From the UHGV virus genome UHGV-1558314: 64,000 bases of DNA; one strand, given 5' to 3'. How positions within the stretch are numbered: the first letter of the stretch is position 1; every line of letters starts with the position of its first letter. The DNA is from a virus. The translations under genes were made by a program, and so were the position numbers. Of the stretch, positions 30,830-48,095 are shown piece by piece. The notes beneath the pieces are model-generated. The model searched no databases. It worked only from the letters and a program-made list of their open reading frames with translations, and was not told the origin of the DNA.

Positions 30830-30845
30830 ATTCGTATTGTTTTAT

Positions 30846-31004: not shown

Positions 31005-31051
31005 CACTTGTTATTAACCCTTAAAATCAATGACACTATGTCAATGTCATT

Positions 31052-31597
31052 TTAGTTTGCGTCCGCTTCCTGCGATTCAGCTTCAGCAGACTTTTCAGCA
31101 AGTTCTGCTTGCTTGCGTTTGTCAATTTCCTGCAAGCAAGTATCAAGTGCAGTAGCATTTTCACGATACTGCTCGTCGAACTTCTGTACTTCTGCTGCAG
31201 GTGCCTCAAGCAGATTGTTGAGCGAATCCAGTGCTGCAGCAACCTGAGCACCCTTGAACTTCGTTGTAGATACTGCACGAACAATGTACTTGAACTCGAA
31301 GATGCCCATGGTGCTTCGTCCTTTTGCAGCGTCAGTAGCCCATGCAGCAAATGCGACAACATCACGCATAAGTCGCATATCAAACTCAAGCTGCGGCAAA
31401 ACAAGTTCGCACACATTACGTGCAACAGACTTGAGCAATTCGCCATCAGTCGTGACAATCATCTGCATTGACTGCGATTTGTCTTCGAGTTCTTTTCGAG
31501 CTTCACTGAGCAACTTTTCAAGTGCTTTCAGCTGCTCCATTGTCATGTCTTTGAGTTCAGTTGCAGGCTTTGCTGCAACAGCATTTTTCTTTGCCAT
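31052..31597 (-). CDS. hypothetical protein (181 aa), predicted helical with acidic C-terminus
   Basis: ORF track; charged, Ala/Lys/Glu-rich sequence. Confidence 0.45.
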   Translation of the reverse strand: MAKKNAVAAKPATELKDMTMEQLKALEKLLSEARKELEDKSQSMQMIVTTDGELLKSVARNVCELVLPQLEFDMRLMRDVVAFAAWATDAAKGRSTMGIFEFKYIVRAVSTTKFKGAQVAAALDSLNNLLEAPAAEVQKFDEQYRENATALDTCLQEIDKRKQAELAEKSAEAESQEADAN

Positions 31598-31610
31598 ATG
31601 AATAAATGTG

Positions 31611-32171
31611 TTATGAGATGATTTTGATGATTGCTAATGCTAATGTTGCTAAGCACAATGCGCTTAACAGAATCTTCCATATTGTGGCAGAATATCTTAA
31701 CAATCGTAAGGGCTGTTCTTCTGCATATGCAAGATATTCGAGTTCAGCAACATTTGACATCACTGTTCTAATGATGCCATTGCCAGTGTAGTTATGTCGA
31801 AGTGTTACGACATCAAGCAGATTGTTTTGCACAAGTTGATTGAAGACAGGTTCCATGCGTTCATGCATGATGTGCTCAACAATTGCGACTGAGTCAAGTG
31901 CTTCAAATTCTGTGCCCTGTATTGTTGCAATGACTTCAGCAGGGAGCTGCGTATGCACAATGAGACATCGTTGTTCATTGAACAATGCAAATCCACTGTT
32001 CTTCAAAAATGTCAAAAAGTACTCATGCTCAGGGTCATTAAGATAGTCAAGCAGATATTGATGCCACTTGTTAGCTTCTGCATCAAGCTTGTTTAGACGT
32101 CGAATGACACCAAATGGCCATAGAGCCAATTTGGTATTGTGGAGGACGGTTTTATATTTCATATGCATCAA
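31611..32171 (-). CDS. hypothetical protein with C-terminal membrane anchor
   Basis: ORF track; C-terminal ILLSALCLATLALAIIKII. Confidence 0.45.
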   Translation of the reverse strand: MMHMKYKTVLHNTKLALWPFGVIRRLNKLDAEANKWHQYLLDYLNDPEHEYFLTFLKNSGFALFNEQRCLIVHTQLPAEVIATIQGTEFEALDSVAIVEHIMHERMEPVFNQLVQNNLLDVVTLRHNYTGNGIIRTVMSNVAELEYLAYAEEQPLRLLRYSATIWKILLSALCLATLALAIIKIIS

Positions 32172-33166
32172 TGTTCAAGATGACATGCACCATTCTGACA
32201 GCCCGCATTGCCATCTGACATGCTTGCAAGATTTGCATTGCTGTCACCACCAGCAGCTTGACCAATATTACCAGATGAGCCAACAATGCTTATGAGTCTG
32301 CTGTCAGACATTGCAGAGCCTGCATTAGCCGAACCTGATTTGCTTGGCAATGATATTCTGGCTTCATCATAGTTGCCACCAAAAGTGATGTTCAAGTCAA
32401 GTGTAGAATCATCACCATCAATATCAATGTTGTGCTCGTAGTCTGTGATGATGTCATCGCCAGCCCATATATTATCGCCAGAATTAATTGCAGGATATTG
32501 CAAGTGTAATGTCAATGGAAGCTTGATGACTGCATCAATGTCTTCTTTGCCATGCGCAATTGTATGCTGAGCATCCATAGAAGACACATCGAATTCATAT
32601 GACGCGCCATGCATAGTGCCCGCCCAGACAAAACCATACATGTTCAACTGATACAGCTTGCTAAGCAGATACTCGTAAGTCTCAAGCGCAGTTAGCCAAT
32701 CTGTTGAAAACACTTGAACATTGATTGCAAAATCTACTGGTATTCGTCTCATTGTGCTATACAATGCAGCAGGCACGCTGTCAATTGTAGCAATCAAACG
32801 AATCTGTGTATCTTGCATGCCAAGCGCTTGTTTGTTGATTCGAGGCGACTCTACTTCAACAACGCATCGCGGCACAGTTTGAACAAAGTTCTTCGCGTCA
32901 ACAAATGCATTTTCAAGTGAATTTGTTGGTGTATTGCCAACTGGGCTTGAGCCTTTACCAACAAGTTCACCTGACCAATATCGTTGGTCGCCAGTGCTCA
33001 GCATGTATGTAGGCATATTCAGACGAGCATACAAATCAGACAGCAGGCCAATAAATGCATTACGAAAGAAGTGCTGAAATGTCACGTCTTTTGCATTGAC
33101 TTGCTGTTTGATTGCAGCTTGAGCTGATTTCAGCTCAGCCGAGCCTCTGTTCAGTGAATCTTTCAT
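32168..33166 (-). CDS. hypothetical protein (332 aa)
   Basis: ORF track; Gly/Ser-rich C-terminal tail. Confidence 0.45.
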   Translation of the reverse strand: MKDSLNRGSAELKSAQAAIKQQVNAKDVTFQHFFRNAFIGLLSDLYARLNMPTYMLSTGDQRYWSGELVGKGSSPVGNTPTNSLENAFVDAKNFVQTVPRCVVEVESPRINKQALGMQDTQIRLIATIDSVPAALYSTMRRIPVDFAINVQVFSTDWLTALETYEYLLSKLYQLNMYGFVWAGTMHGASYEFDVSSMDAQHTIAHGKEDIDAVIKLPLTLHLQYPAINSGDNIWAGDDIITDYEHNIDIDGDDSTLDLNITFGGNYDEARISLPSKSGSANAGSAMSDSRLISIVGSSGNIGQAAGGDSNANLASMSDGNAGCQNGACHLEH

Positions 33167-33597
33167 TGGTCAAGCATATCATTAGCAGCTTTTTGCTGCA
33201 TAACGAGTTTTAGCAAAGCGTCATTGCCCTGTGATTCAAGCATGTTTTTAGCTATGATGAGCTTGTTTGTGTATGACAACTGGTCCCAACAAAGCTTTGT
33301 GTCAAGCTCATAGTATGTGTTGATTGCATCAAACACATCGATAAGCTGCAAAGCGTTTTTTGTTAACGCAGCGCATTTTGCAATGCACTCATTGTACTTT
33401 GTAGGTTCAATGAACTTATATTTGCGAAGTCTTATTCTAATGTACCTGTGATACGAAGACTTTTGCAAAAACTGTTCTATTGTAGATGTTGCTAATGCTA
33501 CTACAGTGTCGTCATTGATTGAAAGCTTGTCGTATTTGATTTCAAACCGCTCAAGTTCCGTAGATAGCCATTCATTGTCAAATATCGACTTACCCAT
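33163..33597 (-). CDS. hypothetical protein (144 aa)
   Basis: ORF track; operon packing. Confidence 0.45.
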   Translation of the reverse strand: MGKSIFDNEWLSTELERFEIKYDKLSINDDTVVALATSTIEQFLQKSSYHRYIRIRLRKYKFIEPTKYNECIAKCAALTKNALQLIDVFDAINTYYELDTKLCWDQLSYTNKLIIAKNMLESQGNDALLKLVMQQKAANDMLDQ

Positions 33598-33621
33598 AGT
33601 GTATGAACTGCTTGTAGCGTG

Positions 33622-33939
33622 TTATTGCATATTGTCGACAATCAGTTGTTCAAGTGCAATAGCTGACAATGCACCAGTTGCACGACCAGCTTCAATGCAA
33701 TCACGAAAGACAATTGTCGTTGGTACTGAACGAACATTATGAGTGCTATCAAGCTCATCGCACTCTTCAACATTCACTTCAGCAAATGTCACCTTGCCAT
33801 TGAATTTCTTTTCAGTTGACTCGAAAATTGGTGCATAGCCTTGACAAGGCACGCACCATGGCGCACTGAACTTCACTACAACGAGTTGATTGTTTGCAAG
33901 TGCTCGAGCCATTTCGGCTTTATGTTTGAGTTGCAACAT
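33622..33939 (-). CDS. thioredoxin
   Basis: Active-site APWCVPCQ (W-C-x-P-C) in a 105-aa protein of thioredoxin size. Confidence 0.75.
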   Translation of the reverse strand: MLQLKHKAEMARALANNQLVVVKFSAPWCVPCQGYAPIFESTEKKFNGKVTFAEVNVEECDELDSTHNVRSVPTTIVFRDCIEAGRATGALSAIALEQLIVDNMQ

Positions 33940-33981
33940 ATCTTTTTATGTTTGTTTGTTGACAATATATGTATATTTGCA

Positions 33982-34437
33982 TTACTCATCATCTTCTACA
34001 GCAAGAACAGCTTCAAGCAATCTTGCGGTGCCTTTGCTAATGTTCTTGTCTTTGACGTTGGTGAGCTTTTTAAGGTCATACTGCATGATGCGCTCAAGCT
34101 TCTTTGCAGACTTGACTATGTCAACATCTTCAGCACGCATTGCTTTTGCAATTTGTGCAGCAAAGATGCACTTGTAGATATCAAGTTCTACGAAATCTGC
34201 TGCTTTGATGTCCTGTTCTTTGTACAGCTCAGTCAATGCTAAGCCAAACTGATTTGACGCTCTGTCAAAATCAACTTTTGTTGCGGGCTGTTGTGTTGCA
34301 TTTGCTACAGCTTGAATTCGCTTTGTGACAAGCAAATAAGTGTCAAACACACCTTTGAGGTCTCGCTGCTCAACTATAGGCCGCAGCATTTCTTTGATTT
34401 CAGTAGAATTGAACGGTTGCATATTGTTTATTAGCAT
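33982..34437 (-). CDS. hypothetical protein (151 aa)
   Basis: ORF track. Confidence 0.45.
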   Translation of the reverse strand: MLINNMQPFNSTEIKEMLRPIVEQRDLKGVFDTYLLVTKRIQAVANATQQPATKVDFDRASNQFGLALTELYKEQDIKAADFVELDIYKCIFAAQIAKAMRAEDVDIVKSAKKLERIMQYDLKKLTNVKDKNISKGTARLLEAVLAVEDDE

Positions 34438-34455
34438 TTATATTGATAATGTACA

Positions 34456-36051
34456 TCAAAGTTTGAATTTTTGCACTTTTGCATCTACTGGCATCTTTTC
34501 AGCGTCATAGATTCGTTTTCGAGCAGCAAAGTGTTGCATGTCATAATTGCAGTAGCAGTAGCCTTTGCGAAGCTTGACAAGCATATCACTGTGAATTGTA
34601 AGCTTATGTGCAATATCAATAATGATTGCTTTCTGCTTAAGTGGATGCTTACGCAACAGTCGCCCAATTGACTGCAATGTTACGTTGTCAGATTTGCCAA
34701 TCATCAAGAATGCAGCATAAAACCAAGCATGCACAGATACGCCTGTAGATAATGTGCCAGTTGTTGCAATCATGATGTGTCTATCAGGCTCTGCTTCCAT
34801 CATTGCAAGCATGTCTTTGCGTTCATGCAAGGGTACATCACCTCTAATGATGTGAACAACCTTGTCAACACCAGACTGCTGTATGAATGTTTGACATGCA
34901 TCATAGATGTTCTGCACATGGTCTCGTCGTTTGCAAAGCACAAGAGCATTTTTGTCAAGCGAACAAATGATTTTTGCAATGAGCTTGTTAGCATCGACGT
35001 AGTTCATGCAATGATGTTGTTCTGCTGGAAGCAGTCTTGCAGTGTTATCAAACACTTCAGGATGCTCTTCAAGATACTGCACAAATGACGCATCATATTC
35101 TGCTGAATGCTCAATGACTACTCGTTTAATTTCAAAGTCAGACACGATGTTCTTTTCGAGTGCTTGAGCTACACCAAATGTACCCAATATTGGCCCAATG
35201 TAAGATTCAATTGTCAAACGAGCTGCAGTGTGCTCAAGTGGCAATGAACCAGAAACTCCAAGACGATAATGAGCTTTTGTGCAATGACTGAAGATTTCAC
35301 GAATTGATGCTGCAGGTGCACCATGAGCTTCATCAGTTACAATGAAGTCGAACTGTTCGAAAAAATCTGCTGGCATATTAACAAGACTTTGATATGTGCC
35401 GACAACCATATCTGCATCTTGCATCTTGTACTCATTGCGAACGCCTGAATGGATTTTGTAGAGCTTGTAGTTCTTGTTTGCTAAATCTGACTCATTTTGT
35501 TGATAGCTGACAACAATATCGTCAAATGCTTGTGACACGAGATGCACCGAGGGCACAATCATAAGTGTTTTGCCATTGATTCTCTTGCTATCTTTTAAGA
35601 AGCGACTAATTACATAAACAAGAGCTGTTTTGCCATAAGAAGTCGCAAGGCGTAAACAGCATTTCTTGAATTTGCAAGCAGTCAAAATAAACTTGAGCTG
35701 GTCGTCACGCATGTCAAATGGCATGTCAAGACATTCTGCCCATTGCTCAAGTTCTTCAAGCGACACAATGCGGTCAAAGTTGTCAATGAGGCCCTCAATC
35801 TTGACTTCGTATGGAATTGGCTTACGCAATTGTAAGTCCCAAATACGCTTCCATAAGCCAAATGGTAGGTATATGCCATTAAACACATAGCAAATTTGCC
35901 CATTCCAATCTGTTTTGCGCCCTTTGCGCTTATTGACTGCTGCTGCAACAAAGTTTGGCACTTCTGCAGTAGCTTCAGCGTATAATTGCTTGGCTTCCAA
36001 ATCATTTGCTTCGACAATCTGAAGCAAATCACCTATGACTTTGAGTCTCAT
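34456..36051 (-). CDS. SF2 DEAH-box DNA helicase (UvsW-like)
   Basis: Walker A LATSYGKTALVYVI, DEAH box FIVTDEAHGAPAA, motif VI LQSIGRLLRKHP. Confidence 0.65.
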   Translation of the reverse strand: MRLKVIGDLLQIVEANDLEAKQLYAEATAEVPNFVAAAVNKRKGRKTDWNGQICYVFNGIYLPFGLWKRIWDLQLRKPIPYEVKIEGLIDNFDRIVSLEELEQWAECLDMPFDMRDDQLKFILTACKFKKCCLRLATSYGKTALVYVISRFLKDSKRINGKTLMIVPSVHLVSQAFDDIVVSYQQNESDLANKNYKLYKIHSGVRNEYKMQDADMVVGTYQSLVNMPADFFEQFDFIVTDEAHGAPAASIREIFSHCTKAHYRLGVSGSLPLEHTAARLTIESYIGPILGTFGVAQALEKNIVSDFEIKRVVIEHSAEYDASFVQYLEEHPEVFDNTARLLPAEQHHCMNYVDANKLIAKIICSLDKNALVLCKRRDHVQNIYDACQTFIQQSGVDKVVHIIRGDVPLHERKDMLAMMEAEPDRHIMIATTGTLSTGVSVHAWFYAAFLMIGKSDNVTLQSIGRLLRKHPLKQKAIIIDIAHKLTIHSDMLVKLRKGYCYCNYDMQHFAARKRIYDAEKMPVDAKVQKFKL

Positions 36052-36065
36052 GACATGACTTGTTA

Positions 36066-36105
36066 AATGAAAAGAGGCTCAGACAAACAATGTCTGTCTG
36101 AGCCT
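36066..36105 (-). terminator. rho-independent terminator after the SSB gene
   Basis: 12-bp stem GAGGCTCAGACA / TGTCTGAGCCTC, followed on the minus strand by TTTTCATTT. Confidence 0.55.
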
Positions 36106-36131
36106 CGAGCATCTTTGATGCGCTTGTACTG

Positions 36132-37265
36132 CTACTTGAGCCCATTGATGAATGCTTCAGTTTCAGCATCCATCGTTGCTGCTGCAGGTGCTGCTGCTGG
36201 AGCTGCTGCAGGTGCAGGCTCTGCTGCAGGTGCTGAAGCTGCTGCAAACGGGTCAATAGCTGTCTGAGCTGCTGGTGCAGTAGCAGGCGCAGCTGCCGGA
36301 GCTGCTGCAGGTGCAGGCTGAGTAGTCTGTGCCTGCTGAGCTGCTGACGAATTGATGACAATGTCAGGCCAGATATCCGACACATCCTTGTAGTTAGCAA
36401 GGCGCATCTTAACCTGACGCTTGATGTCATCAGAAGCTTCGTGGTAGCCCCACTCCTTTTCGACATTCGGGTACTCCTTGAGCATGTCGACAATCTGCTG
36501 CATGATTTGCTGCTTGTATGCAGGGTCAGTGTCATACTTCGCCTGGTCAACAAGGCTGCCATCTGCAAGCAGCATCGACGATACGTTGGGCGAAATCGTC
36601 GAAGTCTCGTAGTCACGCATTTCAACGCCATTGACGTCTTTAAGCGTAATCTTCAAGAGAATGTCGTGGCCCTTAACAGGATGGAACATGTCCATAGGCT
36701 GAGCGCCCATTTGGATGTCTTCGTCGGTCGGCTTCATTGAGCTCAGCATTCTTTTATACAATGCAGCAGGGAGTCGATATGGGAGTACTTTCCCAACGTT
36801 CTCAGGGTGCACTGAATCAGCTTTGATTTGCACGAGGCAAGTGTACTGACTCTGCATACTGAACTCTCGCTTTGCAAGCGCTTCCTGCTGAGCATCCTTG
36901 GTATTGATGAGTTCCCAGTAGAACGCCGAAATGGGGCACCAACCGTAGGGTTTCATCAAATTTTCCGGATTTTCAGGATGCGGATTAGGCGAGCTCGGCG
37001 AATTGTAGCGGAAGCCCTGATTATGGCCAGTTGCAAACCAGTAATAACGAACGATTGAAATCGGTACTGCTGGGTCTGCTAAATTCGGCAATACGCGAAT
37101 AACTGCACGATAAACTTTGTCCTTTGGCGAATCCTGCGGCTTAGGATTGAAGAACTCAGGTCCTGCAGAACGTTCCGGCTTAGCAAAGCTTGCTACATTG
37201 TCCGGCTGGACATCAAAGATTGACAGCGGCTGATTACCGGTCTGTCCATTTTCAATTTGTGACAT
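36132..37265 (-). CDS. single-stranded DNA-binding protein (T4 gp32-like) with Ala/Pro-rich linker
   Basis: RAVIRVLPN and HPENVGKVLPYRL resemble gp32 core segments (AVIRFLPS; APENEGKVFKYRF), recalled from memory. Codon usage is visibly G/C-richer than neighbours. Confidence 0.55.
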   Translation of the reverse strand: MSQIENGQTGNQPLSIFDVQPDNVASFAKPERSAGPEFFNPKPQDSPKDKVYRAVIRVLPNLADPAVPISIVRYYWFATGHNQGFRYNSPSSPNPHPENPENLMKPYGWCPISAFYWELINTKDAQQEALAKREFSMQSQYTCLVQIKADSVHPENVGKVLPYRLPAALYKRMLSSMKPTDEDIQMGAQPMDMFHPVKGHDILLKITLKDVNGVEMRDYETSTISPNVSSMLLADGSLVDQAKYDTDPAYKQQIMQQIVDMLKEYPNVEKEWGYHEASDDIKRQVKMRLANYKDVSDIWPDIVINSSAAQQAQTTQPAPAAAPAAAPATAPAAQTAIDPFAAASAPAAEPAPAAAPAAAPAAATMDAETEAFINGLK

Positions 37266-37337
37266 CGCAATAAATTTTTAGAAAGTTTAACAAAAAGTTT
37301 GAAATGAACTCTTCAGAAAATCTTCAGAAGTTTATTT

Positions 37338-37398
37338 GTTATTTGTATATGTATTGTGCAACATGCATATTCATATTGTATATGAATATGATACAACA
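37338..37398 (-). promoter_or_regulatory. two tandem copies of the conserved promoter motif upstream of the SSB gene
   Basis: Minus-sense TTCGCATGTTGTATCATATTCATATACAAT and ATATGCATGTTGCACAATACATATACAAAT. Confidence 0.45.
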
Positions 37399-37416
37399 TG
37401 CGAATATCATTTGCAC

Positions 37417-38553
37417 TTATCTTGCATGACCGCAATCGTACACTGCAACATAACCAGCATCAATCATAGTCTGTTCATCTTGACCACAGTCTTCAATGTG
37501 CTCTTTTGTCTTCAAATGACACCAGTGCTTACGAATTGTTGACTTGTCATCTGACAGTTGCGGATTGAGCACAAAATCAGTTGAGTCTACTTGTTCACCT
37601 GCAAGATGCTTTCTAATGGCGTCAATGACTTCGTTGTCATCCATCCATTCGAATATTGTAATGCAAGTGTAGCCATGTTTGAGAGCAAGTTGAGCTTTGT
37701 CGAAGTGGTAGAATTTGCCAACTGGCTTATTGTGTTTTGTGCGCCCAGTTAAATATGCAAAGCCATATGTTGCATTGTGTGACCAAAGAGGATTAACTTC
37801 AATCAAAAGTTTGCAGTGTTCATTACAATAATCAAGGTCATATGACCATCGTCCAAGATTGACATTATCAAGCCCGCAATCAATACCAAGTTCTTGCAGC
37901 AATTTGTCATGCCACCAATGGTTTGTTTGCGATTTTATATGACCTTGAGCATTACGGCATTTAGTAGTCATACAAAACCATGGCACACCATGTCGTTCCA
38001 TATTGACTTCTTGAACGCGTTCAAGATTGCCGCTCTTATTGCCATAACGTTGCTGTTTTGTTTGCAATGCAGCATCAATATTGCCCCATGCATTGCCATA
38101 TCGTTTTACAACAGTTTGTCTACGTTTTTCAACATCACAGCACTTATTGCCATATTTACGCAATTTAGTGTCAAATGCTTTTTGTGTATTGCCTACGCCA
38201 CGTTTGACCCATTTGCGCTCTTTGCCTTGTTGACATCGTTCTTGGTTACCCCATGTGCTGCCATATCGTTCTAAATTTGTTTGTCTACGTTTTTCAACAT
38301 TGCCTGCTTTGCATCCATATCGTGCTAAATTTGTTTGTTGTTGTTTAGCTACGCAATCTTTGTTACGTGCAGGAAATTCAACGCCTAATGAACGTAGACA
38401 GCCAATTCTACGATTATAATTACGTTTAATATTGCCGTGTGATGTTTTACAAGGCCCATATCTTACAAACTCAGTTGTTCTCAACAACTCATCTCGCTCT
38501 TGCTCAAGCTCTGCAATGCGCTTCTCAAGAGCTTCACCAGTTAGTGGCGTCAT
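37417..38553 (-). CDS. basic tandem-repeat protein with C-terminal restriction-endonuclease-like domain (putative homing-type nuclease)
   Basis: Five to six tandem repeats of about 22 aa with consensus [K/Q]-x-QTN-L-x-RYG-x-x-x-GN; C-terminal DLDYCNEHCKLLIEVNPLWSHN resembles the D...l-IEV-[D/N]-G...H patch of Vsr/DUF559-type nucleases. Tentative. Confidence 0.4.
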   Translation of the reverse strand: MTPLTGEALEKRIAELEQERDELLRTTEFVRYGPCKTSHGNIKRNYNRRIGCLRSLGVEFPARNKDCVAKQQQTNLARYGCKAGNVEKRRQTNLERYGSTWGNQERCQQGKERKWVKRGVGNTQKAFDTKLRKYGNKCCDVEKRRQTVVKRYGNAWGNIDAALQTKQQRYGNKSGNLERVQEVNMERHGVPWFCMTTKCRNAQGHIKSQTNHWWHDKLLQELGIDCGLDNVNLGRWSYDLDYCNEHCKLLIEVNPLWSHNATYGFAYLTGRTKHNKPVGKFYHFDKAQLALKHGYTCITIFEWMDDNEVIDAIRKHLAGEQVDSTDFVLNPQLSDDKSTIRKHWCHLKTKEHIEDCGQDEQTMIDAGYVAVYDCGHAR

Positions 38554-39305
38554 TTCACTTCAGGTTTTGCTTGCTTGGCCAACTCAGCTTCAGCATTGAA
38601 CTCTTTGCCCTCAGCTTTCATTGTTTCAGCATAAGTCTTTTCATCAGTGTAACGTTCTACGTCATCACCAAGCAGTTTTGCAACTTCATCATCTGCTTCA
38701 AACAATGGCTGTGGATTGTCATCATTGTCATCTTTGAGTTGCTCAAATGTGCTGTTATGCTTTTCTGCAATTTTGATGAGGTCAACGATTGAACGAGTTA
38801 CGAGTTCACCATTGATGCCTGACTGTTGTTCAGATTGACCAGAGCCTTGTTGCAATTCTGCTTGAGTTGCTCGAACATTATTATTGAGTGATGCAAGTAC
38901 ATTGGGAAGAGTTCGACAATATGATATATACTGCTGAACCAACGACATTGCATCATTCTGCAGTTTGATGAGAAATGCAAACTCACCCATGCCTCCGCCT
39001 TGTGCATCAATGCGCTCGAATACTGAATCAAGTGCATGCATTGCATAGAACACTTGTTTGCAAAGTAAATTGATGTTTGTCTTCTCCATCTCGATTGATG
39101 CATCGATAAACGGTGACTTAACATCTGCTGCTATGCACAATTTGCGAACTTCGTCAACATATTTTGAACACTTGTCAAGTGTCTTGTCAAGTTTGCTTCG
39201 GTCAAACTGCTTGTAAACTTCTAATGCATCGCTTACTTCTGCAGCATCCAATATTGCATTTGCTGCAGCCAATTCTGATTCTCTGCTCATCTCAAAATGG
39301 TCCAA
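38550..39305 (-). CDS. hypothetical protein (251 aa)
   Basis: ORF track. Confidence 0.45.
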   Translation of the reverse strand: MDHFEMSRESELAAANAILDAAEVSDALEVYKQFDRSKLDKTLDKCSKYVDEVRKLCIAADVKSPFIDASIEMEKTNINLLCKQVFYAMHALDSVFERIDAQGGGMGEFAFLIKLQNDAMSLVQQYISYCRTLPNVLASLNNNVRATQAELQQGSGQSEQQSGINGELVTRSIVDLIKIAEKHNSTFEQLKDDNDDNPQPLFEADDEVAKLLGDDVERYTDEKTYAETMKAEGKEFNAEAELAKQAKPEVK

Positions 39306-39901
39306 GCTTCAATGATTGCTGAAAAATCTTCAAAGGGCATTGTAGTGTAGCCGGAATCACCCCAAGATATACCCCAGCTATTCTTGATGATGAATGAGTC
39401 TTTTGTATAGCCGACAATTGACACTGCATGACCACCAAAATTGCCATCGCCTTTCCAAAAATGCTCAGCATCAATGTCTTTTACGAGCATACCAACAAAG
39501 ACAGGCCCATTTGCTACAACAGCAGATTTGATTTCATCAATTGTGTAGCAACGTCTGTATGCAGTTATTGGCAATTGCTCTGAGCCCTTTGACATTTTGA
39601 TTGGCTGTGCTTTGAGTAGCTTAAAGACGTCACGTGGAATCATGCCCTCTTGAGGCTTATTTGAACGACGCTCATACAATGCTTTGATGTCAAGCTTGCC
39701 TTGCATAGACAGCACAGAAGACCACCAGTCAATCATTGTTGCTGCTGTGTAAGCTGCACACATTGATGTACTGCCTTGGTCTTCTACTTGAAGCTGAGCA
39801 AGCTTATATGCAAGTGGCAAGTCGGTTTTTGCGTCAAAGCGCAAGTCTCTGTCATCTTGTGGTGACTGGATGTAGCCCAGTCCATATGTCATCTGTTTCA
39901 T
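39287..39901 (-). CDS. papain-like (C1 family) cysteine peptidase
   Basis: Catalytic motifs in order: QGSTSMCAAYTAA (Gln...Cys), GGHAVSIVGY (His), KNSWGISWGDSGY (Asn-Ser-Trp). Confidence 0.6.
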   Translation of the reverse strand: MKQMTYGLGYIQSPQDDRDLRFDAKTDLPLAYKLAQLQVEDQGSTSMCAAYTAATMIDWWSSVLSMQGKLDIKALYERRSNKPQEGMIPRDVFKLLKAQPIKMSKGSEQLPITAYRRCYTIDEIKSAVVANGPVFVGMLVKDIDAEHFWKGDGNFGGHAVSIVGYTKDSFIIKNSWGISWGDSGYTTMPFEDFSAIIEAWTILR

Positions 39902-39916
39902 ATCAGATAGTGTATA

Positions 39917-40213
39917 TCATTGTTCATGCCAGTGTCCTGTCAAGTCAAACATTGCTTCACGTTGTGCCTTTGTGCATTTTGCAATGTCGTCAATAATCCA
40001 ACGCGGAGTGCTTCCCCAGTTGCAATATCGAATATAGCCTAATTGCTCAAGTTCTGCAACTGGGTCATACGCAAGACTAATTGGCATATTGTATGCATCA
40101 AACAGTTCTGGTTTGAGCTTTTGCAACAATATGTCAGCAGTTTTGTTATGTTCAGCAAAGCCACAGTAGGTGACTTGACCTGATGAGCTTAACCAGCAAG
40201 ATTGCATTGTCAT
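39917..40213 (-). CDS. hypothetical protein (98 aa)
   Basis: ORF track. Confidence 0.4.
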   Translation of the reverse strand: MTMQSCWLSSSGQVTYCGFAEHNKTADILLQKLKPELFDAYNMPISLAYDPVAELEQLGYIRYCNWGSTPRWIIDDIAKCTKAQREAMFDLTGHWHEQ

Positions 40214-40572
40214 TCATTTGGTTGAGGCTCAATTCGCATCACTACACGCACAGAATCTCTATAAGGATAAACTGACGCAACAATCAAATACCAACGTTTG
40301 TCGTCGACTTCGCCATTTGACTTGATGTATGGCGCAGAAGTAGTAATGTATCGAGCATGTTTGAATGTCGTATCTACTCTTGCAGCAAGACAGGTAGAAT
40401 CAGTCGTTTGAGCATGCCACACATCAATTTCTGGTAAATACGTGTTATGAGCATTGCATACACTATCAACAAATTCTCGTGGTTGCAAAGTGACAGTTGA
40501 CACATATATTGGCTTAACTGCAGCGCATGCAATGCATGCAATTGCAATGAACAACAATGTAAATCGTTTCAT
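40210..40572 (-). CDS. small secreted or lipoprotein-like protein
   Basis: N-terminus MKRFTLLFIAIACIACAA is a signal peptide with Cys near the predicted cleavage region. Confidence 0.45.
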   Translation of the reverse strand: MKRFTLLFIAIACIACAAVKPIYVSTVTLQPREFVDSVCNAHNTYLPEIDVWHAQTTDSTCLAARVDTTFKHARYITTSAPYIKSNGEVDDKRWYLIVASVYPYRDSVRVVMRIEPQPNE

Positions 40573-40576
40573 ATTC

Positions 40577-40846
40577 TTAGACGTTTTGTAGTTCTACAAT
40601 ATCATATCGCTTATGCAATTCAGACCAGTCACGAACGTAGCCTGTCATAAAGACATGCAACATGTATGGCTTGCTGTCAACATACTTGACTGCACCTGCA
40701 GCATCTTTGATTTGCTTGGCAGTTAGCCAAACTTCTGCGTTGTTACTTGTGTATACGCAATGATACACAGGCTCTGACAATTCAGTCACTGTGATTTTCT
40801 TGCCATTGCGCAATATGCATCGTACTTGTTTGCCCATTGCTTGCAA
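40577..40846 (-). CDS. small hypothetical protein (paralog of 41180..41476)
   Basis: Shared segments VTELSEPVYHCVY / ITELAQPVFPCFVY and GYVRDWSEL / GYVRGWTEL. Confidence 0.4.
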   Translation of the reverse strand: MQAMGKQVRCILRNGKKITVTELSEPVYHCVYTSNNAEVWLTAKQIKDAAGAVKYVDSKPYMLHVFMTGYVRDWSELHKRYDIVELQNV

Positions 40847-40886
40847 TTTATGATATTGTTAAGATATCTACAAAAAGCAATGCACT

Positions 40887-41183
40887 CTACAAAAAGCAAT
40901 GCACCATAAAACCCAAGAACATAATTATTGCAGGCTGCATGATGCAATACATAAAGAACTGTGCAGCAATCGGCAATTCATTGAACTTGTTGACTGTGTC
41001 ATGATTCTTGAACAATGCCAGTACAAATGATATCCCAATTGCATGCTTAAGCGATAACGCAGTCAATGCGGGCCACACAGGCATCACAAACCACTCCCAG
41101 AAGTTCATAATAATGCAGCCATTCAGAATATAGCCTAACAGCATGAACATAATGCATGCAACAGTTGTCAGAAAGTTTTTCAT
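40887..41183 (-). CDS. small membrane protein (3 TM; holin-like candidate)
   Basis: ORF track; three hydrophobic segments in a 98-aa protein. Confidence 0.4.
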   Translation of the reverse strand: MKNFLTTVACIMFMLLGYILNGCIIMNFWEWFVMPVWPALTALSLKHAIGISFVLALFKNHDTVNKFNELPIAAQFFMYCIMQPAIIMFLGFMVHCFL

Positions 41184-41476
41184 ATACGCTCAAGTTTTAT
41201 GATGTCAGTTCTTAATGATTTGTATACAGCAAATAATTCAGTCCAGCCTCGTACATAACCAACGCCAATTACATGCAATGCATGTGCATCTGGTTTTGTA
41301 TGGCAATGTCTTGCATGAGGCTGCTGTTCAAGTTCTGCTTGTGTAAGATAGACCTTTGATGTGTCATCATACACAAAACATGGAAATACTGGCTGTGCAA
41401 GTTCTGTTATGTCAATGTCTTGACCATTAGATAGCTTTGCAAGATATAATGTATTGGATTGCATATTAGCTTGCAT
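41180..41476 (-). CDS. small hypothetical protein (paralog of 40577..40846)
   Basis: See 40577..40846. Confidence 0.4.
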   Translation of the reverse strand: MQANMQSNTLYLAKLSNGQDIDITELAQPVFPCFVYDDTSKVYLTQAELEQQPHARHCHTKPDAHALHVIGVGYVRGWTELFAVYKSLRTDIIKLERI

Positions 41477-41477
41477 A

Positions 41478-42401
41478 TTACATTGAGATGTTAAGAATTC
41501 GCTTGACTACAGAATCGATATCATTGTTTGCAGCATTGCACAGTTCCATGCGAACATTAGAATCAATGAACAAGTTATGAAACGTTGACGCAGCTTGAAC
41601 AAGATGACACCAGATTGCTCGTCTACACATTGCAAGTTCTCTGTCAGCTTTGCTGCATTGCATGAGATACGAGTTTGCTCTATCACTGTAATATGACTGA
41701 GCATACTTGCATTGACGTTCAGCGTCATTTACAATGTACATGTATGGAGTCTTGACGTCAAAGTAAATTTTGCAATACAATGACTTGTCATCAATTGCAA
41801 AGTCATCAATATTGACAGTCAAATCTGTCATTGCATACGTCAAACCTCTGTCATGCAAATATGCAAACATTGCAGTATAGCATTGATGCAATGTAGCAAT
41901 CAATTCACATTTGTCAGTTGACTGAACAACTTTGTATGCTGCTTTGATTGCCTTTGCATATATGAGCTGCAAACACAGCTCTTTGCGACGCAATGCTTTG
42001 CGTTCAAATTGTCGCTCATATTTGATGTGCTTACGTATGCGTTTGCGTTCTGTAAGCAATTTCGACAAGTCAATACGAATGTATTTTGATACATTTGTAA
42101 CAGCGGTGTCAATACTGTGCCACTGTTCAATGTCGTCAATGTCAAGTTCATGCGCAAGTGAATGTGACACTCTGCCGTACATGTATAAGACTTTGCAGTT
42201 GTCATCGCATAATGCATACATACACCATGATGACAGTTCAATGTCATGCTCAAATGTGGCAAAATCAACTTCTACTGCAATATTTGCGTTTGTGCATATG
42301 CATTTTTGAATGTCAATGTCACTTAAGTACCACTTGAAAAATGAATCGACTTCTGCAGAATGTTGACTTATGATGCGCTTGAACAGCTTGTTCGATTTCA
42401 T
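41478..42401 (-). CDS. hypothetical protein (307 aa)
   Basis: ORF track. Confidence 0.45.
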   Translation of the reverse strand: MKSNKLFKRIISQHSAEVDSFFKWYLSDIDIQKCICTNANIAVEVDFATFEHDIELSSWCMYALCDDNCKVLYMYGRVSHSLAHELDIDDIEQWHSIDTAVTNVSKYIRIDLSKLLTERKRIRKHIKYERQFERKALRRKELCLQLIYAKAIKAAYKVVQSTDKCELIATLHQCYTAMFAYLHDRGLTYAMTDLTVNIDDFAIDDKSLYCKIYFDVKTPYMYIVNDAERQCKYAQSYYSDRANSYLMQCSKADRELAMCRRAIWCHLVQAASTFHNLFIDSNVRMELCNAANNDIDSVVKRILNISM

Positions 42402-42688: not shown

Positions 42689-42700
42689 GATAGTCGCGTT

Positions 42701-45895: not shown

Positions 45896-46549
45896 CTACA
45901 ACATATTCCAGTTTGTTATGTCATACATGTTGAAGCTGAACGCTGATGTGATGTATCCAAGAGTAGTCAAGATGTCCACACCAACTACAGGGTCATTTGC
46001 AATAAGCAAAATACAGTTAGTGACAGACGTATCGACCATATTGTCTGCTTGAAAATCATTGTGCATCAACCAGTCAGCAAAGCAGATGTCATAGTACACA
46101 GGATTGCCTGCAAATACTTTATCATTTCCAAATGCTTCTGATGGGTGCGACAATGTAGATGCAAGCAGTTGAATGTCTTCATCTGTGCAAGACGATTTAA
46201 TGTCATCAAGCACAATTGCTACACGCTGCTCATTTGTCTCTGAATCACCTCTATGAATTTCATGAATCCAAGGCAAGCATGCAAGTGCATCACCACATGT
46301 CAAATTGACATTATCAAGTGTCTCGCCTTGACCTGCGTAGCAATATAAAGTGGAGCCAGTGCCATAACGTAGACAGTCATTTATGCTGACATTATCAAGA
46401 TACACTGAACAAATTGACAATGCACCTGCACCAAGCCTGTTTGCAGGAATTGTCAACTTATATGTTGGCACGCCATTTGACTGCACTGTAATAGGCGAGC
46501 CCGCTAATAATTCACCAGTGTCAGCATCATAGCATTCGACTTCTTGCAT
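45896..46549 (-). CDS. cassette gene C (217 aa), candidate variable fibre or receptor-binding protein
   Basis: ORF track; its frame is open upstream through the IR G7 tract (TPAVNRGGALRDTIISGTINKADGSLLEAAYAT-MQEVECYD...). Confidence 0.5.
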   Translation of the reverse strand: MQEVECYDADTGELLAGSPITVQSNGVPTYKLTIPANRLGAGALSICSVYLDNVSINDCLRYGTGSTLYCYAGQGETLDNVNLTCGDALACLPWIHEIHRGDSETNEQRVAIVLDDIKSSCTDEDIQLLASTLSHPSEAFGNDKVFAGNPVYYDICFADWLMHNDFQADNMVDTSVTNCILLIANDPVVGVDILTTLGYITSAFSFNMYDITNWNML

Positions 46550-46734: not shown

Positions 46735-46775
46735 GCACAAAAAAGAAGAGCATCGGTTAAAAACCGATGCTCTTT
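46735..46775 (-). terminator. rho-independent terminator after BACON-like gene
   Basis: Stem GAAGAGCATCGGTT / AACCGATGCTCTTT, followed on the minus strand by TTTTTTGTG. Confidence 0.55.
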
Positions 46776-46822: not shown

Positions 46823-47437
46823 TTACGATACAGTCCACGGGCAGTTTGCGGTAACCGTAACCGTAACGGCAGGAGTACCGGCCTGAGGAATCGTGATTTC
46901 CTGCTTGTCGAGTACCAGCGTCGGGTCACCAGCAGCCTGAACGATTGCAATCTGAGCAGTCTGGGCACCGTTGGCAGTTACCAAAATCGATGTCGTGCGC
47001 TCGTTAATCGTCAAGTTGGCAGGAATGTCAAGCTCAATGCTGAAAGCAAACTCGGCGTTGGCACCAGGGTCACCAGTGATTGCTACGCCATTGTTGGTTT
47101 CTACACCAGCAACTGCGTACTTTTTAGGCAGTTCGATAACAAACTCGCCGCCCTCAACGATGCTGAACGTCAGCTTCGATGAGTTAGATACACCGGTTAC
47201 GGTAAGAGTACCGCCAGCTTTAGGAGCTGACATCTCTGAGCCGTTGTCAAATGACACGAACTCAGCCTTTGCAGTCTGCTGTACATTGTACGTTGAAGGC
47301 GCTGCAATACCAGCACCCTGAACGGTTACAACACCAGTACGTGCAATACGACCAGTGTGGGCGTCAGCAGAGTTGGAAATTGAACCATTACCCGAACCAG
47401 ATGTCGGGCTAAGTTTCAACCATGCGGGTTTAGCCAT
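46823..47437 (-). CDS. BACON/Ig-like domain protein (204 aa)
   Basis: N-terminus MAKPAWLKLSPTSGSGNGSISNSADAHTGRIARTGVVTV fits the BACON pattern (W-L...SP-x-SG-x-G...R-x-G-x-VTV) and ends ...VTVTANCPWTVS. Codon usage is G/C-richer than its neighbours. Confidence 0.5.
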   Translation of the reverse strand: MAKPAWLKLSPTSGSGNGSISNSADAHTGRIARTGVVTVQGAGIAAPSTYNVQQTAKAEFVSFDNGSEMSAPKAGGTLTVTGVSNSSKLTFSIVEGGEFVIELPKKYAVAGVETNNGVAITGDPGANAEFAFSIELDIPANLTINERTTSILVTANGAQTAQIAIVQAAGDPTLVLDKQEITIPQAGTPAVTVTVTANCPWTVS

Positions 47438-47495: not shown

Positions 47496-48095
47496 TCAAA
47501 GAATTTTCCAAGAAGCGTTTGATGTCAAATTCATTGTGATTGTCGTGCCATCATCATCAACTGTCACAGATTCTGTACTCAGCACAAGAGTTGCTGCAGC
47601 AGCTGCTTGAGTAATGCTAACATTCAATGATTTGCCACCAGGAGTTGTCACTGTCAATACAAATGATTTCTGTTCAATTGTCAAATTTTGCGGTATTGTA
47701 GCTTCAATTGACCATGCAAACTTTGCAATATATCCAGGGTCATTTGCAATTGCTGTGTCATTTGTTGCAGCGACGCCATTTGCTGTGTACGCAGTCGGAA
47801 TGCTAAGATTCGGATTTGTAGTTGCAAACTTAAGTTTTGCTGCGTTAGACTCACCAGAAACAACAATTTTTGTGGTTGCCGCAGAAACATTGTATGATGT
47901 TGTGCCAGATACAAATTCTGCAAGAGCAGCTTGGTTGATTGTTGCTTGCTTTGTAACTGTTGGTGTGGTCTTCGTTTGCACAGTCGCAATTGTGCTACGA
48001 ATGCCTCTGCCGGTATGAGCTCCTGCAGTAAATGCCAGGATATCATTACCCTCACCAGACATTGGTGAACACTGTGCCCATATAGCTTTTGCCAT
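47496..48095 (-). CDS. BACON/Ig-like domain protein (199 aa), paralog
   Basis: N-terminus MAKAIWAQCSPMSGEGNDILAFTAGAHTGRGIRSTIATV parallels 46823..47437 and 48167..52495. Confidence 0.5.
   Translation of the reverse strand: MAKAIWAQCSPMSGEGNDILAFTAGAHTGRGIRSTIATVQTKTTPTVTKQATINQAALAEFVSGTTSYNVSAATTKIVVSGESNAAKLKFATTNPNLSIPTAYTANGVAATNDTAIANDPGYIAKFAWSIEATIPQNLTIEQKSFVLTVTTPGGKSLNVSITQAAAAATLVLSTESVTVDDDGTTITMNLTSNASWKIL

What the first reader, a model, noticed from the sequence alone, without database searches (positions are those of the whole stretch)
36132..37265. Codon-usage island in the gp32-like SSB gene and in one BACON-like gene
Genes 36132..37265 and 46823..47437 use visibly more G/C-ending and CG-containing codons (ccg, gcg, ctc, ggc) than their neighbours, including the paralogous BACON gene 47496..48095. 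This is either translational optimisation of very highly expressed genes or recent horizontal acquisition. The SSB also carries an Ala/Pro-rich low-complexity linker (APAAAPAAAPATAPAA...) before a short C-terminal tail.
Basis: seen in the sequence. Interest (0 to 1): 0.45.

Follow-up and report, generated by a model that had tools for sequence, protein, structure and literature searches.

The report
Codon-tuned genes for abundant phage proteins
The two GC-richer genes are real outliers, and they use the same special codon set as the capsid and tail-sheath genes of this phage lineage. They are most likely codon-tuned genes for very abundant proteins, which is a known phenomenon, and not recently imported DNA.

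Summary
Of 65 ORFs in the window, only the gp32-type SSB gene (36132..37265) and the small BACON gene (46823..47437) deviate strongly in synonymous codon use. Their GC3 z-scores, conditional on amino acids, are +7.0 and +5.1; all other genes are at or below 2.6.

Three details need correcting:
- In the SSB the bias lies in the folded core. The Ala/Pro linker uses the phage's ordinary codons.
- The deviation is codon-specific, not a plain GC shift.
- The rest of the genome carries an extreme DNA-level dinucleotide signature (CC/GG 0.47, CA/TG and GC about 1.7, no GATC), and the two genes largely lack it.

Recent horizontal transfer is not supported for the SSB. The gene is syntenic, and its divergence tracks its neighbours'. 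It is an outlier in five relatives down to 57-60% identity, although synonymous sites there are nearly saturated.

In a 95-99% identical relative, the major capsid gene (z +10.3), the tail sheath (+4.2) and a tube-like gene (+2.2) show the same codon preferences. Their correlations with the SSB and BACON1 are r 0.68 and 0.84; control genes give about 0.

Best reading: selection on codons of very highly expressed genes. This predicts that BACON1 is an abundant virion protein. It is a known phenomenon seen in a new phage lineage.

The parts
36132..37265 (-). gp32-family single-stranded-DNA-binding protein gene (377 aa); codon-usage outlier
   Evidence: Pfam PF08804 gp32 scores 59.3 bits against a cut-off of 26.8. 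phrog_224 SSB, E 1.6e-16. T4 gp32 core 1gpc, E 5e-7. GC3s z +7.0.
36357..37265 (-). SSB core (codons 1-303). This part carries the codon bias and the relaxed dinucleotide signature.
   Evidence: GC3s 0.526 against 0.335 expected, z 7.2. Symmetrised rho is CC 0.83, CA 1.19, GC 1.28, against 0.48, 1.72 and 1.70 in the rest of the window. Codon-junction CC is 0.93 against 0.26.
36132..36356 (-). Ala/Pro-rich low-complexity linker and short conserved C-terminal tail (TMDAETEAFINGLK) of the SSB. Codon use and dinucleotide signature are native.
   Evidence: GCA 23/33 and CCT 7/11; z 1.3. rho CC 0.44, CA 1.96, GC 1.99. In relatives the linker varies in length and sequence while the tail keeps a conserved T..A.F..G motif.
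36074..36106 (-). Intrinsic-terminator-like hairpin plus T-run directly after the SSB stop codon
   Evidence: 15-bp stem with 8 G-C pairs, followed by TTTTCATTT. It is one of only four hairpins with at least 12 pairs in 30001-50000; the sequence was read.
37266..37416 (-). AT-rich leader upstream of the SSB gene. It holds two copies of TTCTGAAGA (about 37309-37331) that are conserved in relatives.
   Evidence: GC is about 0.30. The repeats are conserved in W, L001, L005, L002 and L004, with spacers of variable length. Their function was not tested.
46823..47437 (-). BACON1: a 204-aa all-beta protein with an N-terminal BACON domain; codon-usage outlier. The bias lies in codons 52-204 (46826-47284).
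   Evidence: PF13004 BACON scores 34 bits against a cut-off of 25. GC3s z +5.1. z per 50-codon block is 0.1, 3.0, 3.2 and 4.2. AlphaFold2 model pLDDT 93.9, all beta. Codon log-odds correlate with the lineage's capsid gene at r 0.84.
46746..46774 (-). Intrinsic-terminator-like hairpin plus T-run after BACON1
   Evidence: 13-bp stem followed by CTTTTTTGTG; the sequence was read.

Best explanation
The two genes are the window's members of a small class of very highly expressed genes in this T4-like phage of a Bacteroidota-type host. Selection on synonymous codons, for efficient and accurate translation, holds these genes at a distinct codon set. That set favours TTC, TAC, ATC, CAG, AAG, CCG, TCG, ACC/ACG and CGT, and in late genes also GGT, GCT/GCC, GTT/GTA, AAC, GAC and CTG. 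It avoids ATA, ACA, CCA, CAA, TCA, CTA and AGA.

This selection works against a strong, lineage-wide DNA-level bias that shapes every other gene and the intergenic DNA: CC/GG depletion and CA/TG and GC excess. The SSB is needed in stoichiometric amounts to coat single-stranded DNA. The capsid-grade bias of BACON1 implies that it too is made in very large amounts, most likely as a virion surface protein.

Shown: the deviation, its codon specificity, its sharing with the capsid, sheath and tube-like genes, and its persistence in diverged relatives. Inferred: that expression level is the driver, that the host tRNA pool sets the preferred codons, and the role of BACON1.
For: 1. Only two of 65 ORFs deviate (z +7.0 and +5.1), and the deviation is codon-specific.
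2. The two genes' codon log-odds correlate with each other at r 0.61.
3. In the 95-99% identical relative IMGVR_UViG_3300045988_152288 (L029), three more genes show the same deviation. The major head protein (phrog_138/28442) has GC 0.513 and z +10.3, with r 0.68 to the SSB and 0.84 to BACON1. The tail sheath has z +4.2 and a tube-like gene z +2.2.
4. About 66 kb of further sequence from that contig, outside the window-equivalent stretch, holds no other strong positive outlier.
5. Sheath genes of more distant clade members are also outliers (L021 z +5.6, L026 z +7.8). Their log-odds correlate with the window's SSB at r 0.41-0.73, while five control genes of the window give r from -0.11 to 0.14.
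6. The SSB core is an outlier against its own neighbours in all five relatives (z 3.2-8.6, same codons). Identical-codon fractions at conserved residues are close to the saturation expectation (0.435 against 0.409, 0.443 against 0.410). A decaying relic cannot explain the +0.19 GC3s excess.
7. SSB divergence tracks the neighbours' divergence: 60/57, 62/58 and 74/70 % identity.
8. Two-fold pyrimidine-ending codons shift to C. The preferred set overlaps the optimal codons listed for Bacteroides, Parabacteroides and Porphyromonas by Hershberg and Petrov 2009 (PMC2700274). Fop z is 5.2-5.6 for the SSB and 3.9-5.0 for BACON1, the top two of 65 genes.
9. Both genes lack GATC and CTAG, like the rest of the genome, which fits long residence.
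10. Each gene is followed by a strong terminator.
11. The phenomenon is documented for head and tail genes of other phages (Lucks et al. 2008, PMC2266997).
Against: - No expression data exist, and the host is unknown.
- Among G/C-ending codons, the SSB does not prefer the codon listed as optimal for Bacteroides (z -0.8 to -2.7), so host-tRNA matching is not shown beyond GC3 and the two-fold codons.
- An Akashi-type test in the SSB core, asking whether preferred codons sit at invariant residues, is not significant (OR 1.36, p 0.26).
- The SSB differs from BACON1 and the capsid gene for Asn (AAT), Gly (GGC) and Ala. Explaining this needs an early/late difference or noise.
- The sheath is less biased than BACON1, although sheath proteins are abundant.
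- In the cultured distant relative Chryseobacterium phage MA9V-2, neither the SSB nor the sheath is an outlier.
- The BACON1 family occurs in unrelated phages, so it has moved horizontally at some time.
- The capsid, sheath and tube-like evidence comes from a near-identical relative, not from the window's own contig.
Confidence: 0.78

Rival explanations
1. Recent horizontal acquisition: both genes were imported from a genome of about 50% GC and have not yet ameliorated.
For: Composition is atypical at all three codon positions and in the dinucleotide signature. A homing-endonuclease-like gene lies next to the SSB. The BACON1 family has more than 1150 homologues in unrelated phages, some of them in contigs of about 49% GC with GC3 0.655.
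Against: SSB: it has only 7 homologues among 5.8 billion proteins. All five with a readable context sit at the same place next to the UvsW-like helicase or the 251-aa gene. Its identity tracks the neighbours'. The island is present in every relative although synonymous sites are nearly saturated. The endonuclease-like gene has the opposite bias (z -4.0) and is absent from L002 and L004, where the island persists.

Both genes lack GATC and CTAG. Both share their codon set with the capsid and sheath genes.
Confidence: 0.04
2. Old horizontal acquisition of BACON1 only. A cosmopolitan BACON-family gene entered the lineage before the split of the window's lineage from L013, and it is still partly unameliorated.
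For: BACON1 is 60-67% identical to homologues in unrelated phages but only 38% identical to its tandem neighbour BACON2. Identical-codon retention between the window and L013 is 0.526 against 0.439 at saturation, so roughly 40% of an ancestral excess could survive in each lineage. That is compatible with a donor like L015.
Against: The codon-level pattern of BACON1 is not a plain GC shift: GGT, GTA/GTT and GCT go up while GTC/GTG and GGC go down. It matches the lineage's own capsid gene at r 0.84. The BACON2-BACON1 tandem and BACON1's GC3 excess are kept in L013. A 200-aa BACON protein in clade member L021 shows the same trend.
Confidence: 0.1
3. Selection on mRNA structure or stability rather than on decoding. 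One example would be a structured coding region that limits binding of the SSB to its own message, as in T4 gene 32 autoregulation.
For: The SSB core RNA folds better than its shuffles: z -4.2. In W, L002, L003 and L004 the values are -3.2, -4.7, -2.4 and -1.9. The SSB and BACON1 rank 2nd and 3rd of 37 genes.
Against: Control genes reach similar values: 45896..46549 gives -3.3 and L003 UvsW gives -3.3. BACON1 reaches only -1.3 to -1.9. The relaxation is strand-symmetric, with CA and TG falling together. The same codon set appears in capsid and sheath genes, which have no such autoregulation.
Confidence: 0.06
4. Local exemption from, or reversal of, the lineage's mutational process. Examples are transcription-coupled repair, or GC-biased gene conversion at recombination hot spots created by neighbouring homing endonucleases.
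For: Endonuclease-like genes flank both the SSB (window) and the capsid gene (L029). The relaxation also affects codon junctions: CC 0.93 and 1.04 against 0.26.
Against: The SSB island is equally present in L002 and L004, which lack the endonuclease gene. BACON1 has no such neighbour. The deviation is codon-specific, with some A/T-ending codons favoured. The SSB linker inside the same transcript is fully native.
Confidence: 0.03

Closest known systems
Translational selection for host-preferred codons in phage head and tail genes (Lucks, Nelson, Kudla and Plotkin 2008, PMC2266997)
   Same: A few abundantly made phage proteins (capsid, sheath, tube-like) differ from the rest of the genome in GC3 and codon choice. 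The same class here also includes the SSB and BACON1.
   Different: The host, and therefore the host-preferred codons, are unknown. A non-structural early gene (the SSB) is as biased as the capsid gene. The background against which the bias stands out is an unusually extreme DNA-level dinucleotide signature.
T4 gp32 single-stranded-DNA-binding protein (Pfam PF08804; PDB 1gpc)
   Same: Family membership is shown by profile and by match to a solved structure. The gene lies in a replication/recombination module next to a UvsW-like helicase. The protein ends in a flexible C-terminal region, as expected for a region that contacts partner proteins (own knowledge of gp32).
   Different: Identity to T4 gp32 is only about 25%. 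The C-terminal region is an Ala/Pro-rich linker of about 60 residues plus a short tail, not T4's acidic domain. The zinc ligands were not examined.
BACON-domain proteins of gut Bacteroidota and their phages; T4 Hoc-type Ig-like capsid decoration proteins (functional analogy only)
   Same: The protein has an N-terminal BACON domain and an all-beta, multi-domain Ig-like model. Its best fold matches are uncharacterised or BACON-annotated proteins of crAss-like and other gut phages, with TM 0.72-0.81.
   Different: No member of this roughly 200-aa family has a tested function. A location on the capsid is inferred only from the capsid-grade codon bias. The gene's position, at the end of the baseplate/fibre module, would also fit a fibre-associated protein.
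Amelioration model of horizontally transferred genes (Lawrence and Ochman; own knowledge)
   Same: The genes have atypical GC at all codon positions and an atypical dinucleotide signature inside an otherwise homogeneous genome.
   Different: The SSB excess does not decay with divergence, and the gene's phylogeny is congruent with its neighbours'.

Membership tests
gp32-type SSB (PF08804) | Profile match above the curated threshold | tested here: met
   59.3 bits against a cut-off of 26.8, covering residues 54-282. phrog_224, E 1.6e-16.
gp32-type SSB (PF08804) | Sequence relationship to the solved gp32 core | tested here: met
   1gpc E 5.2e-7; 8gme E 1.2e-6; residues 53-218.
gp32-type SSB (PF08804) | Zinc-binding His/Cys ligands of the T4 core | not tested
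   H96, C110, C143 and H153 are invariant in the seven relatives, but they were not mapped onto the T4 ligands.
gp32-type SSB (PF08804) | Cooperative binding to single-stranded DNA | not testable with these tools
   This needs biochemistry.
BACON domain proteins (PF13004) | Profile match above the curated threshold | tested here: met
   BACON1 scores 34.0 bits against a cut-off of 25, residues 4-54. BACON2 has no Pfam hit but is 38% identical to BACON1.
BACON domain proteins (PF13004) | Beta-sandwich fold resembling known BACON modules | tested here: met
   pLDDT 93.9, all beta. Foldseek hits include the BACON-bearing B. ovatus GH5 (3zmr) and BvGH123, with low TM, and phage BACON proteins with TM 0.72-0.81.
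Translationally selected (highly expressed) gene class | Synonymous codon use differs from the genome after controlling for amino acids | tested here: met
   z +7.0 and +5.1; chi-square 192 and 247 on 41 df.
Translationally selected (highly expressed) gene class | The same preferred codons occur in independently recognisable abundant proteins | tested here: met
   Capsid z +10.3, with r 0.68 to the SSB and 0.84 to BACON1. Sheath z +4.2, +5.6 and +7.8 in three clade members. Controls give r about 0.
Translationally selected (highly expressed) gene class | Bias maintained over time spans that saturate synonymous sites | tested here: met
   The SSB core gives z 3.2-8.6 in five relatives. Identical-codon fractions are close to the saturation expectation.
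Translationally selected (highly expressed) gene class | Preferred codons match the host's tRNA pool or optimal codons | tested here: inconclusive
   The host is unknown. Against the published Bacteroidales optimal codons, Fop z is 5.2-5.6 and 3.9-5.0. Among G/C-ending codons, however, the SSB shows no preference for the listed optimum. The window holds no tRNA genes.
Translationally selected (highly expressed) gene class | Preferred codons concentrated at conserved residues (Akashi test) | tested here: inconclusive
   OR 1.36, p 0.26, in the SSB core.
Translationally selected (highly expressed) gene class | Measured high expression | not testable with these tools
   There are no transcriptome or proteome data for this uncultured phage.
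Recently transferred genomic island | Phylogeny or divergence incongruent with flanking genes | tested here: not met
   SSB against neighbour identity: 60/57, 62/58, 74/70 and 87/80 %.
Recently transferred genomic island | Absent from, or at another place in, relatives | tested here: not met
   The SSB sits at the same place in L001-L005. The BACON2-BACON1 tandem is kept in L006 and L013.
Recently transferred genomic island | Carries motifs that the resident genome has purged | tested here: not met
   Neither gene contains GATC or CTAG. CCGG is enriched, with 7 of the window's 16 sites, but that follows from the relaxed CC/GG bias.

The most novel reading that the evidence does not exclude
The lineage-wide purge of CC/GG, together with the total absence of GATC and the near-absence of CTAG, may be an adaptive DNA-level signature, for example evasion of host nucleases or a link to a DNA modification. 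On this reading, the few genes for very abundant proteins are the only places where codon selection outweighs it, so they concentrate the avoided motifs. The capsid-grade codon bias of BACON1 would then mark it as a capsid-copy-number surface protein: a BACON-type counterpart of T4 Hoc that lets a gut myovirus stick to glycans.
Probability: 0.15. Interest if true: 0.55.

Novelty: new member of a known kind. Interest (0 to 1): 0.25.

Why it matters
The finding itself is ordinary. Codon bias in a few highly expressed phage genes is textbook, and here it is simply very visible because the rest of the genome is so skewed.

It has two practical uses. First, in uncultured phages of this clade, codon bias can be used to pick out the most abundantly made proteins. 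It flags the uncharacterised, very widespread roughly 200-aa BACON protein family as a probable major virion component that is worth a structural and glycan-binding study. Second, it warns against reading compositional islands in phage genomes as horizontal transfer without checking relatives.

The unusual background signature (CC/GG depletion, no GATC) is the less expected observation and deserves its own follow-up.

Tried and rejected
1. Nucleotide search of 34000-40000 against cultured phages found no match. The closest cultured relatives are Chryseobacterium phages MA9V-1/2 at about 30% protein identity. In MA9V-2 neither the SSB (z -1.5) nor the sheath (z -0.6) is a GC3 outlier, so it gives no help on mechanism.
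2. tRNA scan of the window: none found.
3. A pure GC3-shift model was rejected because the residual G is far above that of other genes.
4. RNase or motif avoidance on the mRNA (for example ACA) was rejected. The depletion is strand-symmetric, with CA and TG falling together, and it also appears out of frame only as a by-product of codon choice.
5. The Akashi test in the SSB core was not significant.
6. RNA folding z-scores are suggestive for the SSB, but control genes overlap them.
7. A link between the homing endonuclease and the island was rejected, because the island is present in relatives that lack the endonuclease gene.
8. Walking along the IMG/VR contig from the baseplate side yielded only fibre, terminase and replication genes and no outlier. 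The capsid/sheath block was reached only through an alignment of sheath proteins from clade relatives.
9. Sequence search of BACON1 against solved structures found nothing useful. NCBIfam gave no hits.
10. The match to Bacteroidales optimal codons does not go beyond GC3 and the two-fold codons.
Full report
WHAT THE WINDOW IS. Almost all ORFs lie on the minus strand. The region around the finding is the replication/recombination module of a large T4-like myovirus. It holds a gp32-family SSB (36132..37265; PF08804 59.3 bits against a cut-off of 26.8; 1gpc E 5e-7) and a UvsW-like helicase (34456..36051). It also holds a metallophosphoesterase/SbcC-like protein, a thymidylate-synthase-like protein and helicases. 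Further along is a baseplate/fibre module that ends with a 1442-aa protein carrying an N-terminal BACON domain and two small BACON proteins. No cultured phage is close at the DNA level. The nearest cultured relatives are Chryseobacterium phages MA9V-1/2, at about 30% protein identity and with similar gene order.

- GC jumps to 0.505 in 36001-37000, against about 0.40 elsewhere.
- Of 65 ORFs, the SSB and BACON1 (46823..47437) have GC 0.506 and 0.515 and GC3 0.496 and 0.480, against a mean GC3 of 0.371.
- I conditioned on each gene's amino-acid sequence and used the other genes as the codon table. The GC3s z-scores are then +7.0 and +5.1. The next gene is +2.55, and the paralogue BACON2 is -1.3. 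Chi-square is 192 and 247 on 41 df, against about 40 typically.

REFINEMENTS TO THE OBSERVATION.
- In the SSB the bias is confined to the folded core (codons 2-303, z 7.2). The Ala/Pro linker and tail use the phage's ordinary codons (GCA, CCT; z 1.3), so their high GC is purely an amino-acid effect.
- The first 50 codons of BACON1 are native-like.
- The deviation is codon-specific. CAG, AAG, CCG, TCG, ACC/ACG, ATC, TTC, TAC and CTC go up, and ACA, CCA, CAA and ATA go down.
- BACON1 additionally favours GGT, GTA/GTT, GCT/GCC, AAC and GAC, while GTC, GTG and GGC go down.
- A one-parameter GC3 shift leaves a residual G of 115 and 168, against a median of 43 and a maximum of 82 in other genes.
- The two genes' codon log-odds correlate at r 0.61.

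AN UNEXPECTED BACKGROUND. The rest of the window carries an extreme dinucleotide signature.
- Symmetrised rho is CC/GG 0.47, CA/TG 1.72, GC 1.71, CG 0.62 and TA 0.57.
- The signature is a DNA-level property. It is the same in intergenic DNA (CC 0.42, CA 1.68, GC 1.81) and at codon junctions (CC 0.26, GG 0.27, CA 1.98, GC 2.26).
- GATC is absent from all 64 kb (195 expected), and CTAG occurs three times (107 expected).
- The signature is shared by all relatives of the lineage. It is absent from unrelated phages that carry BACON1 homologues.
- The SSB core and BACON1 largely lack it: CC 0.83 and 0.81, CA 1.19 and 1.25, GC 1.28 and 1.13. No 900-nt window elsewhere exceeds CC 0.80 or falls below CA 1.39. 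The SSB linker has the signature in full.
- Both genes nevertheless lack GATC and CTAG.
So the "codon island" is better described as two genes that escape a lineage-wide DNA-level bias.

IS IT HORIZONTAL TRANSFER? THE SSB.
- The SSB has only seven homologues among 5.8 billion proteins.
- The five with a readable context (97, 95, 76, 60 and 58% identity) all sit at the same place, next to the UvsW-like helicase or the 251-aa gene.
- SSB identity tracks neighbour identity: 60 against 57, 62 against 58, 74 against 70, and 87 against 80 %.
- In every relative the SSB core is an outlier against its own neighbours (z 3.2-8.6) with the same codons and the same relaxed dinucleotide signature, while the linker is native.
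- At conserved residues, the fraction of identical codons between the window and L003 or L004 is 0.435 and 0.443. The expectation at full saturation is 0.409 and 0.410.
- Most synonymous sites have therefore turned over, yet the excess (+0.19 GC3s in the window) persists. A decaying relic cannot give this; the bias is actively maintained.
- The homing-endonuclease-like gene upstream (37417..38553, phrog_3339) has the opposite bias (z -4.0). It is absent from L002 and L004, where the island persists.

IS IT HORIZONTAL TRANSFER? BACON1.
- The family is cosmopolitan. It has more than 1150 homologues of about 202 aa at about 60-66% identity, in at least three unrelated phage contexts with genome GC of 24-49%. 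In most of those phages the gene follows the local composition.
- BACON1 is only 38% identical to its neighbour BACON2.
- The BACON2-BACON1 tandem and BACON1's GC3 excess are conserved in a 77%/68%-identical relative (L013).
- A simple amelioration calculation does not exclude an old transfer for BACON1.

THE DECISIVE COMPARISON. I looked for genes whose products are known to be abundant.
- In clade members that share the dinucleotide signature, the tail sheath (phrog_34521, E 3e-130) is a GC3s outlier: L021 z +5.6, L026 z +7.8, L028 z +1.7.
- The sheath's codon log-odds correlate with the window's SSB at r 0.41-0.73. Five control genes of the window give r from -0.11 to 0.14.
- An alignment of these sheath proteins retrieved the head/tail block of the 95-99% identical relative IMGVR_UViG_3300045988_152288 (L029).
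- In L029 the major head protein (571 aa; phrog_138 and phrog_28442) is the strongest outlier of all. It has GC 0.513, GC3s 0.532 against 0.337 expected, and z +10.3. Its rho values are CC 0.73, CA 1.33 and GC 1.22, and its junction CC is 1.04. Its codon log-odds correlate at r 0.68 with the SSB and r 0.84 with BACON1.
- In the same locus the sheath has z +4.2 and a tube-like 191-aa gene z +2.2.
- The capsid gene's choices (GCT, GGT, GTT, CGT, AAC, GAC, TTC, ATC, AAG, CAG, CTG, TCG) follow the pattern generally seen in highly expressed bacterial genes. They are nearly the same as BACON1's.
- No other strong positive outlier occurs in the roughly 66 kb of that contig examined outside the window-equivalent stretch.
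The set of deviant genes is therefore capsid, SSB, BACON1, sheath and tube-like. These are the proteins a T4-like phage makes in the largest amounts (own knowledge of T4), plus one uncharacterised protein.

MECHANISM.
- The best-supported explanation is selection on synonymous codons in very highly expressed genes. This selection is strong enough to override the lineage's context-dependent DNA-level bias.
- The override is graded: full in the capsid gene and the window's SSB, partial in the sheath and in the SSBs of L002-L004.
- The weakly constrained SSB linker drifts to the genomic equilibrium.
- Shown: the deviation, the shared codon set, the membership of the class, and the persistence through synonymous saturation.
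- Inferred: that expression level drives it, and that the host's tRNA pool defines the preferred codons.
- The preferred set overlaps the optimal codons published for Bacteroides, Parabacteroides and Porphyromonas (PMC2700274). The SSB and BACON1 rank first and second in Fop. Among G/C-ending codons the match is not specific, and the host is unknown.
- An Akashi test was not significant.
- Each of the two genes is directly followed by one of only four strong terminator hairpins in 20 kb. This fits discrete, stable transcripts but is not proof.
- The phenomenon matches the report by Lucks et al. 2008 of host-preferred codons in phage head and tail genes (PMC2266997).

WHAT BACON1 IS. An AlphaFold2 model built on 47 family members is confident (pLDDT 93.9) and all beta, with Ig-like/BACON-type domains. 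Solved structures give only generic BACON/Ig matches. The best viral matches are uncharacterised or BACON-annotated proteins of crAss-like and other gut phages, with TM 0.72-0.81. Its codon bias equals that of the capsid gene and exceeds that of the sheath. I therefore infer an abundant late virion protein, possibly a capsid decoration protein. The gene's position at the end of the fibre module would also fit a fibre-associated role. This is a prediction, not a result.

RIVALS.
- Recent transfer is rejected for the SSB and unnecessary for BACON1.
- Selection for mRNA structure has weak support. The SSB folding z is -1.9 to -4.7 in four lineages, but control genes overlap these values.
- Endonuclease-driven conversion or repair-based exemption does not fit the relatives that lack the endonuclease gene, nor the native linker inside the same gene.

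VERDICT. This is a new instance of a known phenomenon, made conspicuous by an unusual genomic background. That background (CC/GG purge, no GATC) and the predicted abundance of a cosmopolitan BACON protein are the more interesting by-products.

Noticed in passing
whole window 1-64000; also L001-L006, L013, L016-L018, L020, L021, L026, L028, L029: An extreme, lineage-specific dinucleotide signature at the DNA level. Symmetrised rho is CC/GG 0.47, CA/TG 1.72, GC 1.71, CG 0.62 and TA 0.57. It is the same in intergenic DNA and at codon junctions. It is absent from unrelated phages that carry BACON1 homologues. The cause is unknown: mutational bias, nuclease avoidance and a link to DNA modification are all possible.
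   Followed up: partly
whole window 1-64000: GATC does not occur at all (195 expected from dinucleotide-preserving shuffles). CTAG occurs 3 times (107 expected), at 8090, 8258 and 44408. Close relatives are likewise nearly free of both. The more distant L002 has 18 GATC in 6.8 kb.
   Followed up: partly
window 37417-38553 (-); L029 14316-15707 and 18968-20050: A homing-endonuclease-like gene (phrog_3339; repeated RYGN..GN modules) lies directly upstream of the SSB. It is the most negative GC3 outlier of the window (z -4.0) and is absent from relatives L002 and L004. Endonuclease-like genes also flank the capsid gene in the close relative. Of these, 14316-15707 has z -3.9 and 18968-20050 has z -1.2. 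The unannotated gene between them and the capsid gene, 17859-18920, has z -4.6.
   Followed up: partly
window about 37309-37331 (-), within the leader 37266-37416: Two copies of TTCTGAAGA lie upstream of the SSB start. They are conserved in W, L001, L005, L002 and L004, with a variable spacer, and are followed by an A/T-rich leader. They are a candidate operator or promoter element. A palindrome, CATATTCATATACAATATGAATATG, lies further upstream.
   Followed up: partly
window 46823-47437 and loci L007-L015: The roughly 202-aa BACON1 family has more than 1150 homologues at about 60% identity. They occur in phages of very different type and GC (24-49%), often beside fibre-like genes. It is a cosmopolitan, uncharacterised gut-phage protein.
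   Followed up: partly
window 48167-52495 (-): A 1442-aa protein with a weak N-terminal BACON match and very unusual composition (GC2 0.643, GC3 0.297), which suggests a Gly/Ala/Thr/Ser-rich fibre.
   Followed up: no
window 31052-31597 (-) and 30976-31005: A 181-aa ORF of unknown function with raised GC (0.467, GC1 0.62). Its GC3 z of +1.7 is within the normal spread, as is its Fop z of +2.2 (rest sd about 1.15). It is followed by one of the four strong terminator hairpins in 30001-50000. It may be a moderately expressed member of the same class.
   Followed up: no
window 40887-41183 (-) and 41180-41476 (-): Two adjacent 98-aa ORFs with opposite GC3 deviations (z +2.55 and -3.15).
   Followed up: no
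window 36357-37265 (-): The SSB core RNA folds more stably than dinucleotide shuffles: z -4.2 here, and -1.9 to -4.7 in three diverged relatives. Some control genes reach similar values.
   Followed up: partly
window 10764-11822, 22983-24158; L005 8845-9498: A long thymidylate-synthase-like protein (352 aa), a glucosyltransferase-like protein and a dCMP-deaminase-like protein. These hint at modified DNA bases, which might be connected with the odd dinucleotide signature.
   Followed up: no
window upstream of 46823-47437, 48167-52495, 6305-7966, 2394-2846, 33163-33597; L029 upstream of the capsid and tube-like genes: The motif AATAACA occurs 14-29 nt before five start codons. That is 5 of its 15 minus-strand copies, inside about 4% of the sequence. 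It also lies before the capsid and tube-like genes of the relative. It may be a leader or late-promoter element.
   Followed up: partly
window 36296-37240 and 46878-47196: Seven of the window's 16 CCGG sites lie in the two outlier genes, which make up 2.7% of the sequence.
   Followed up: yes
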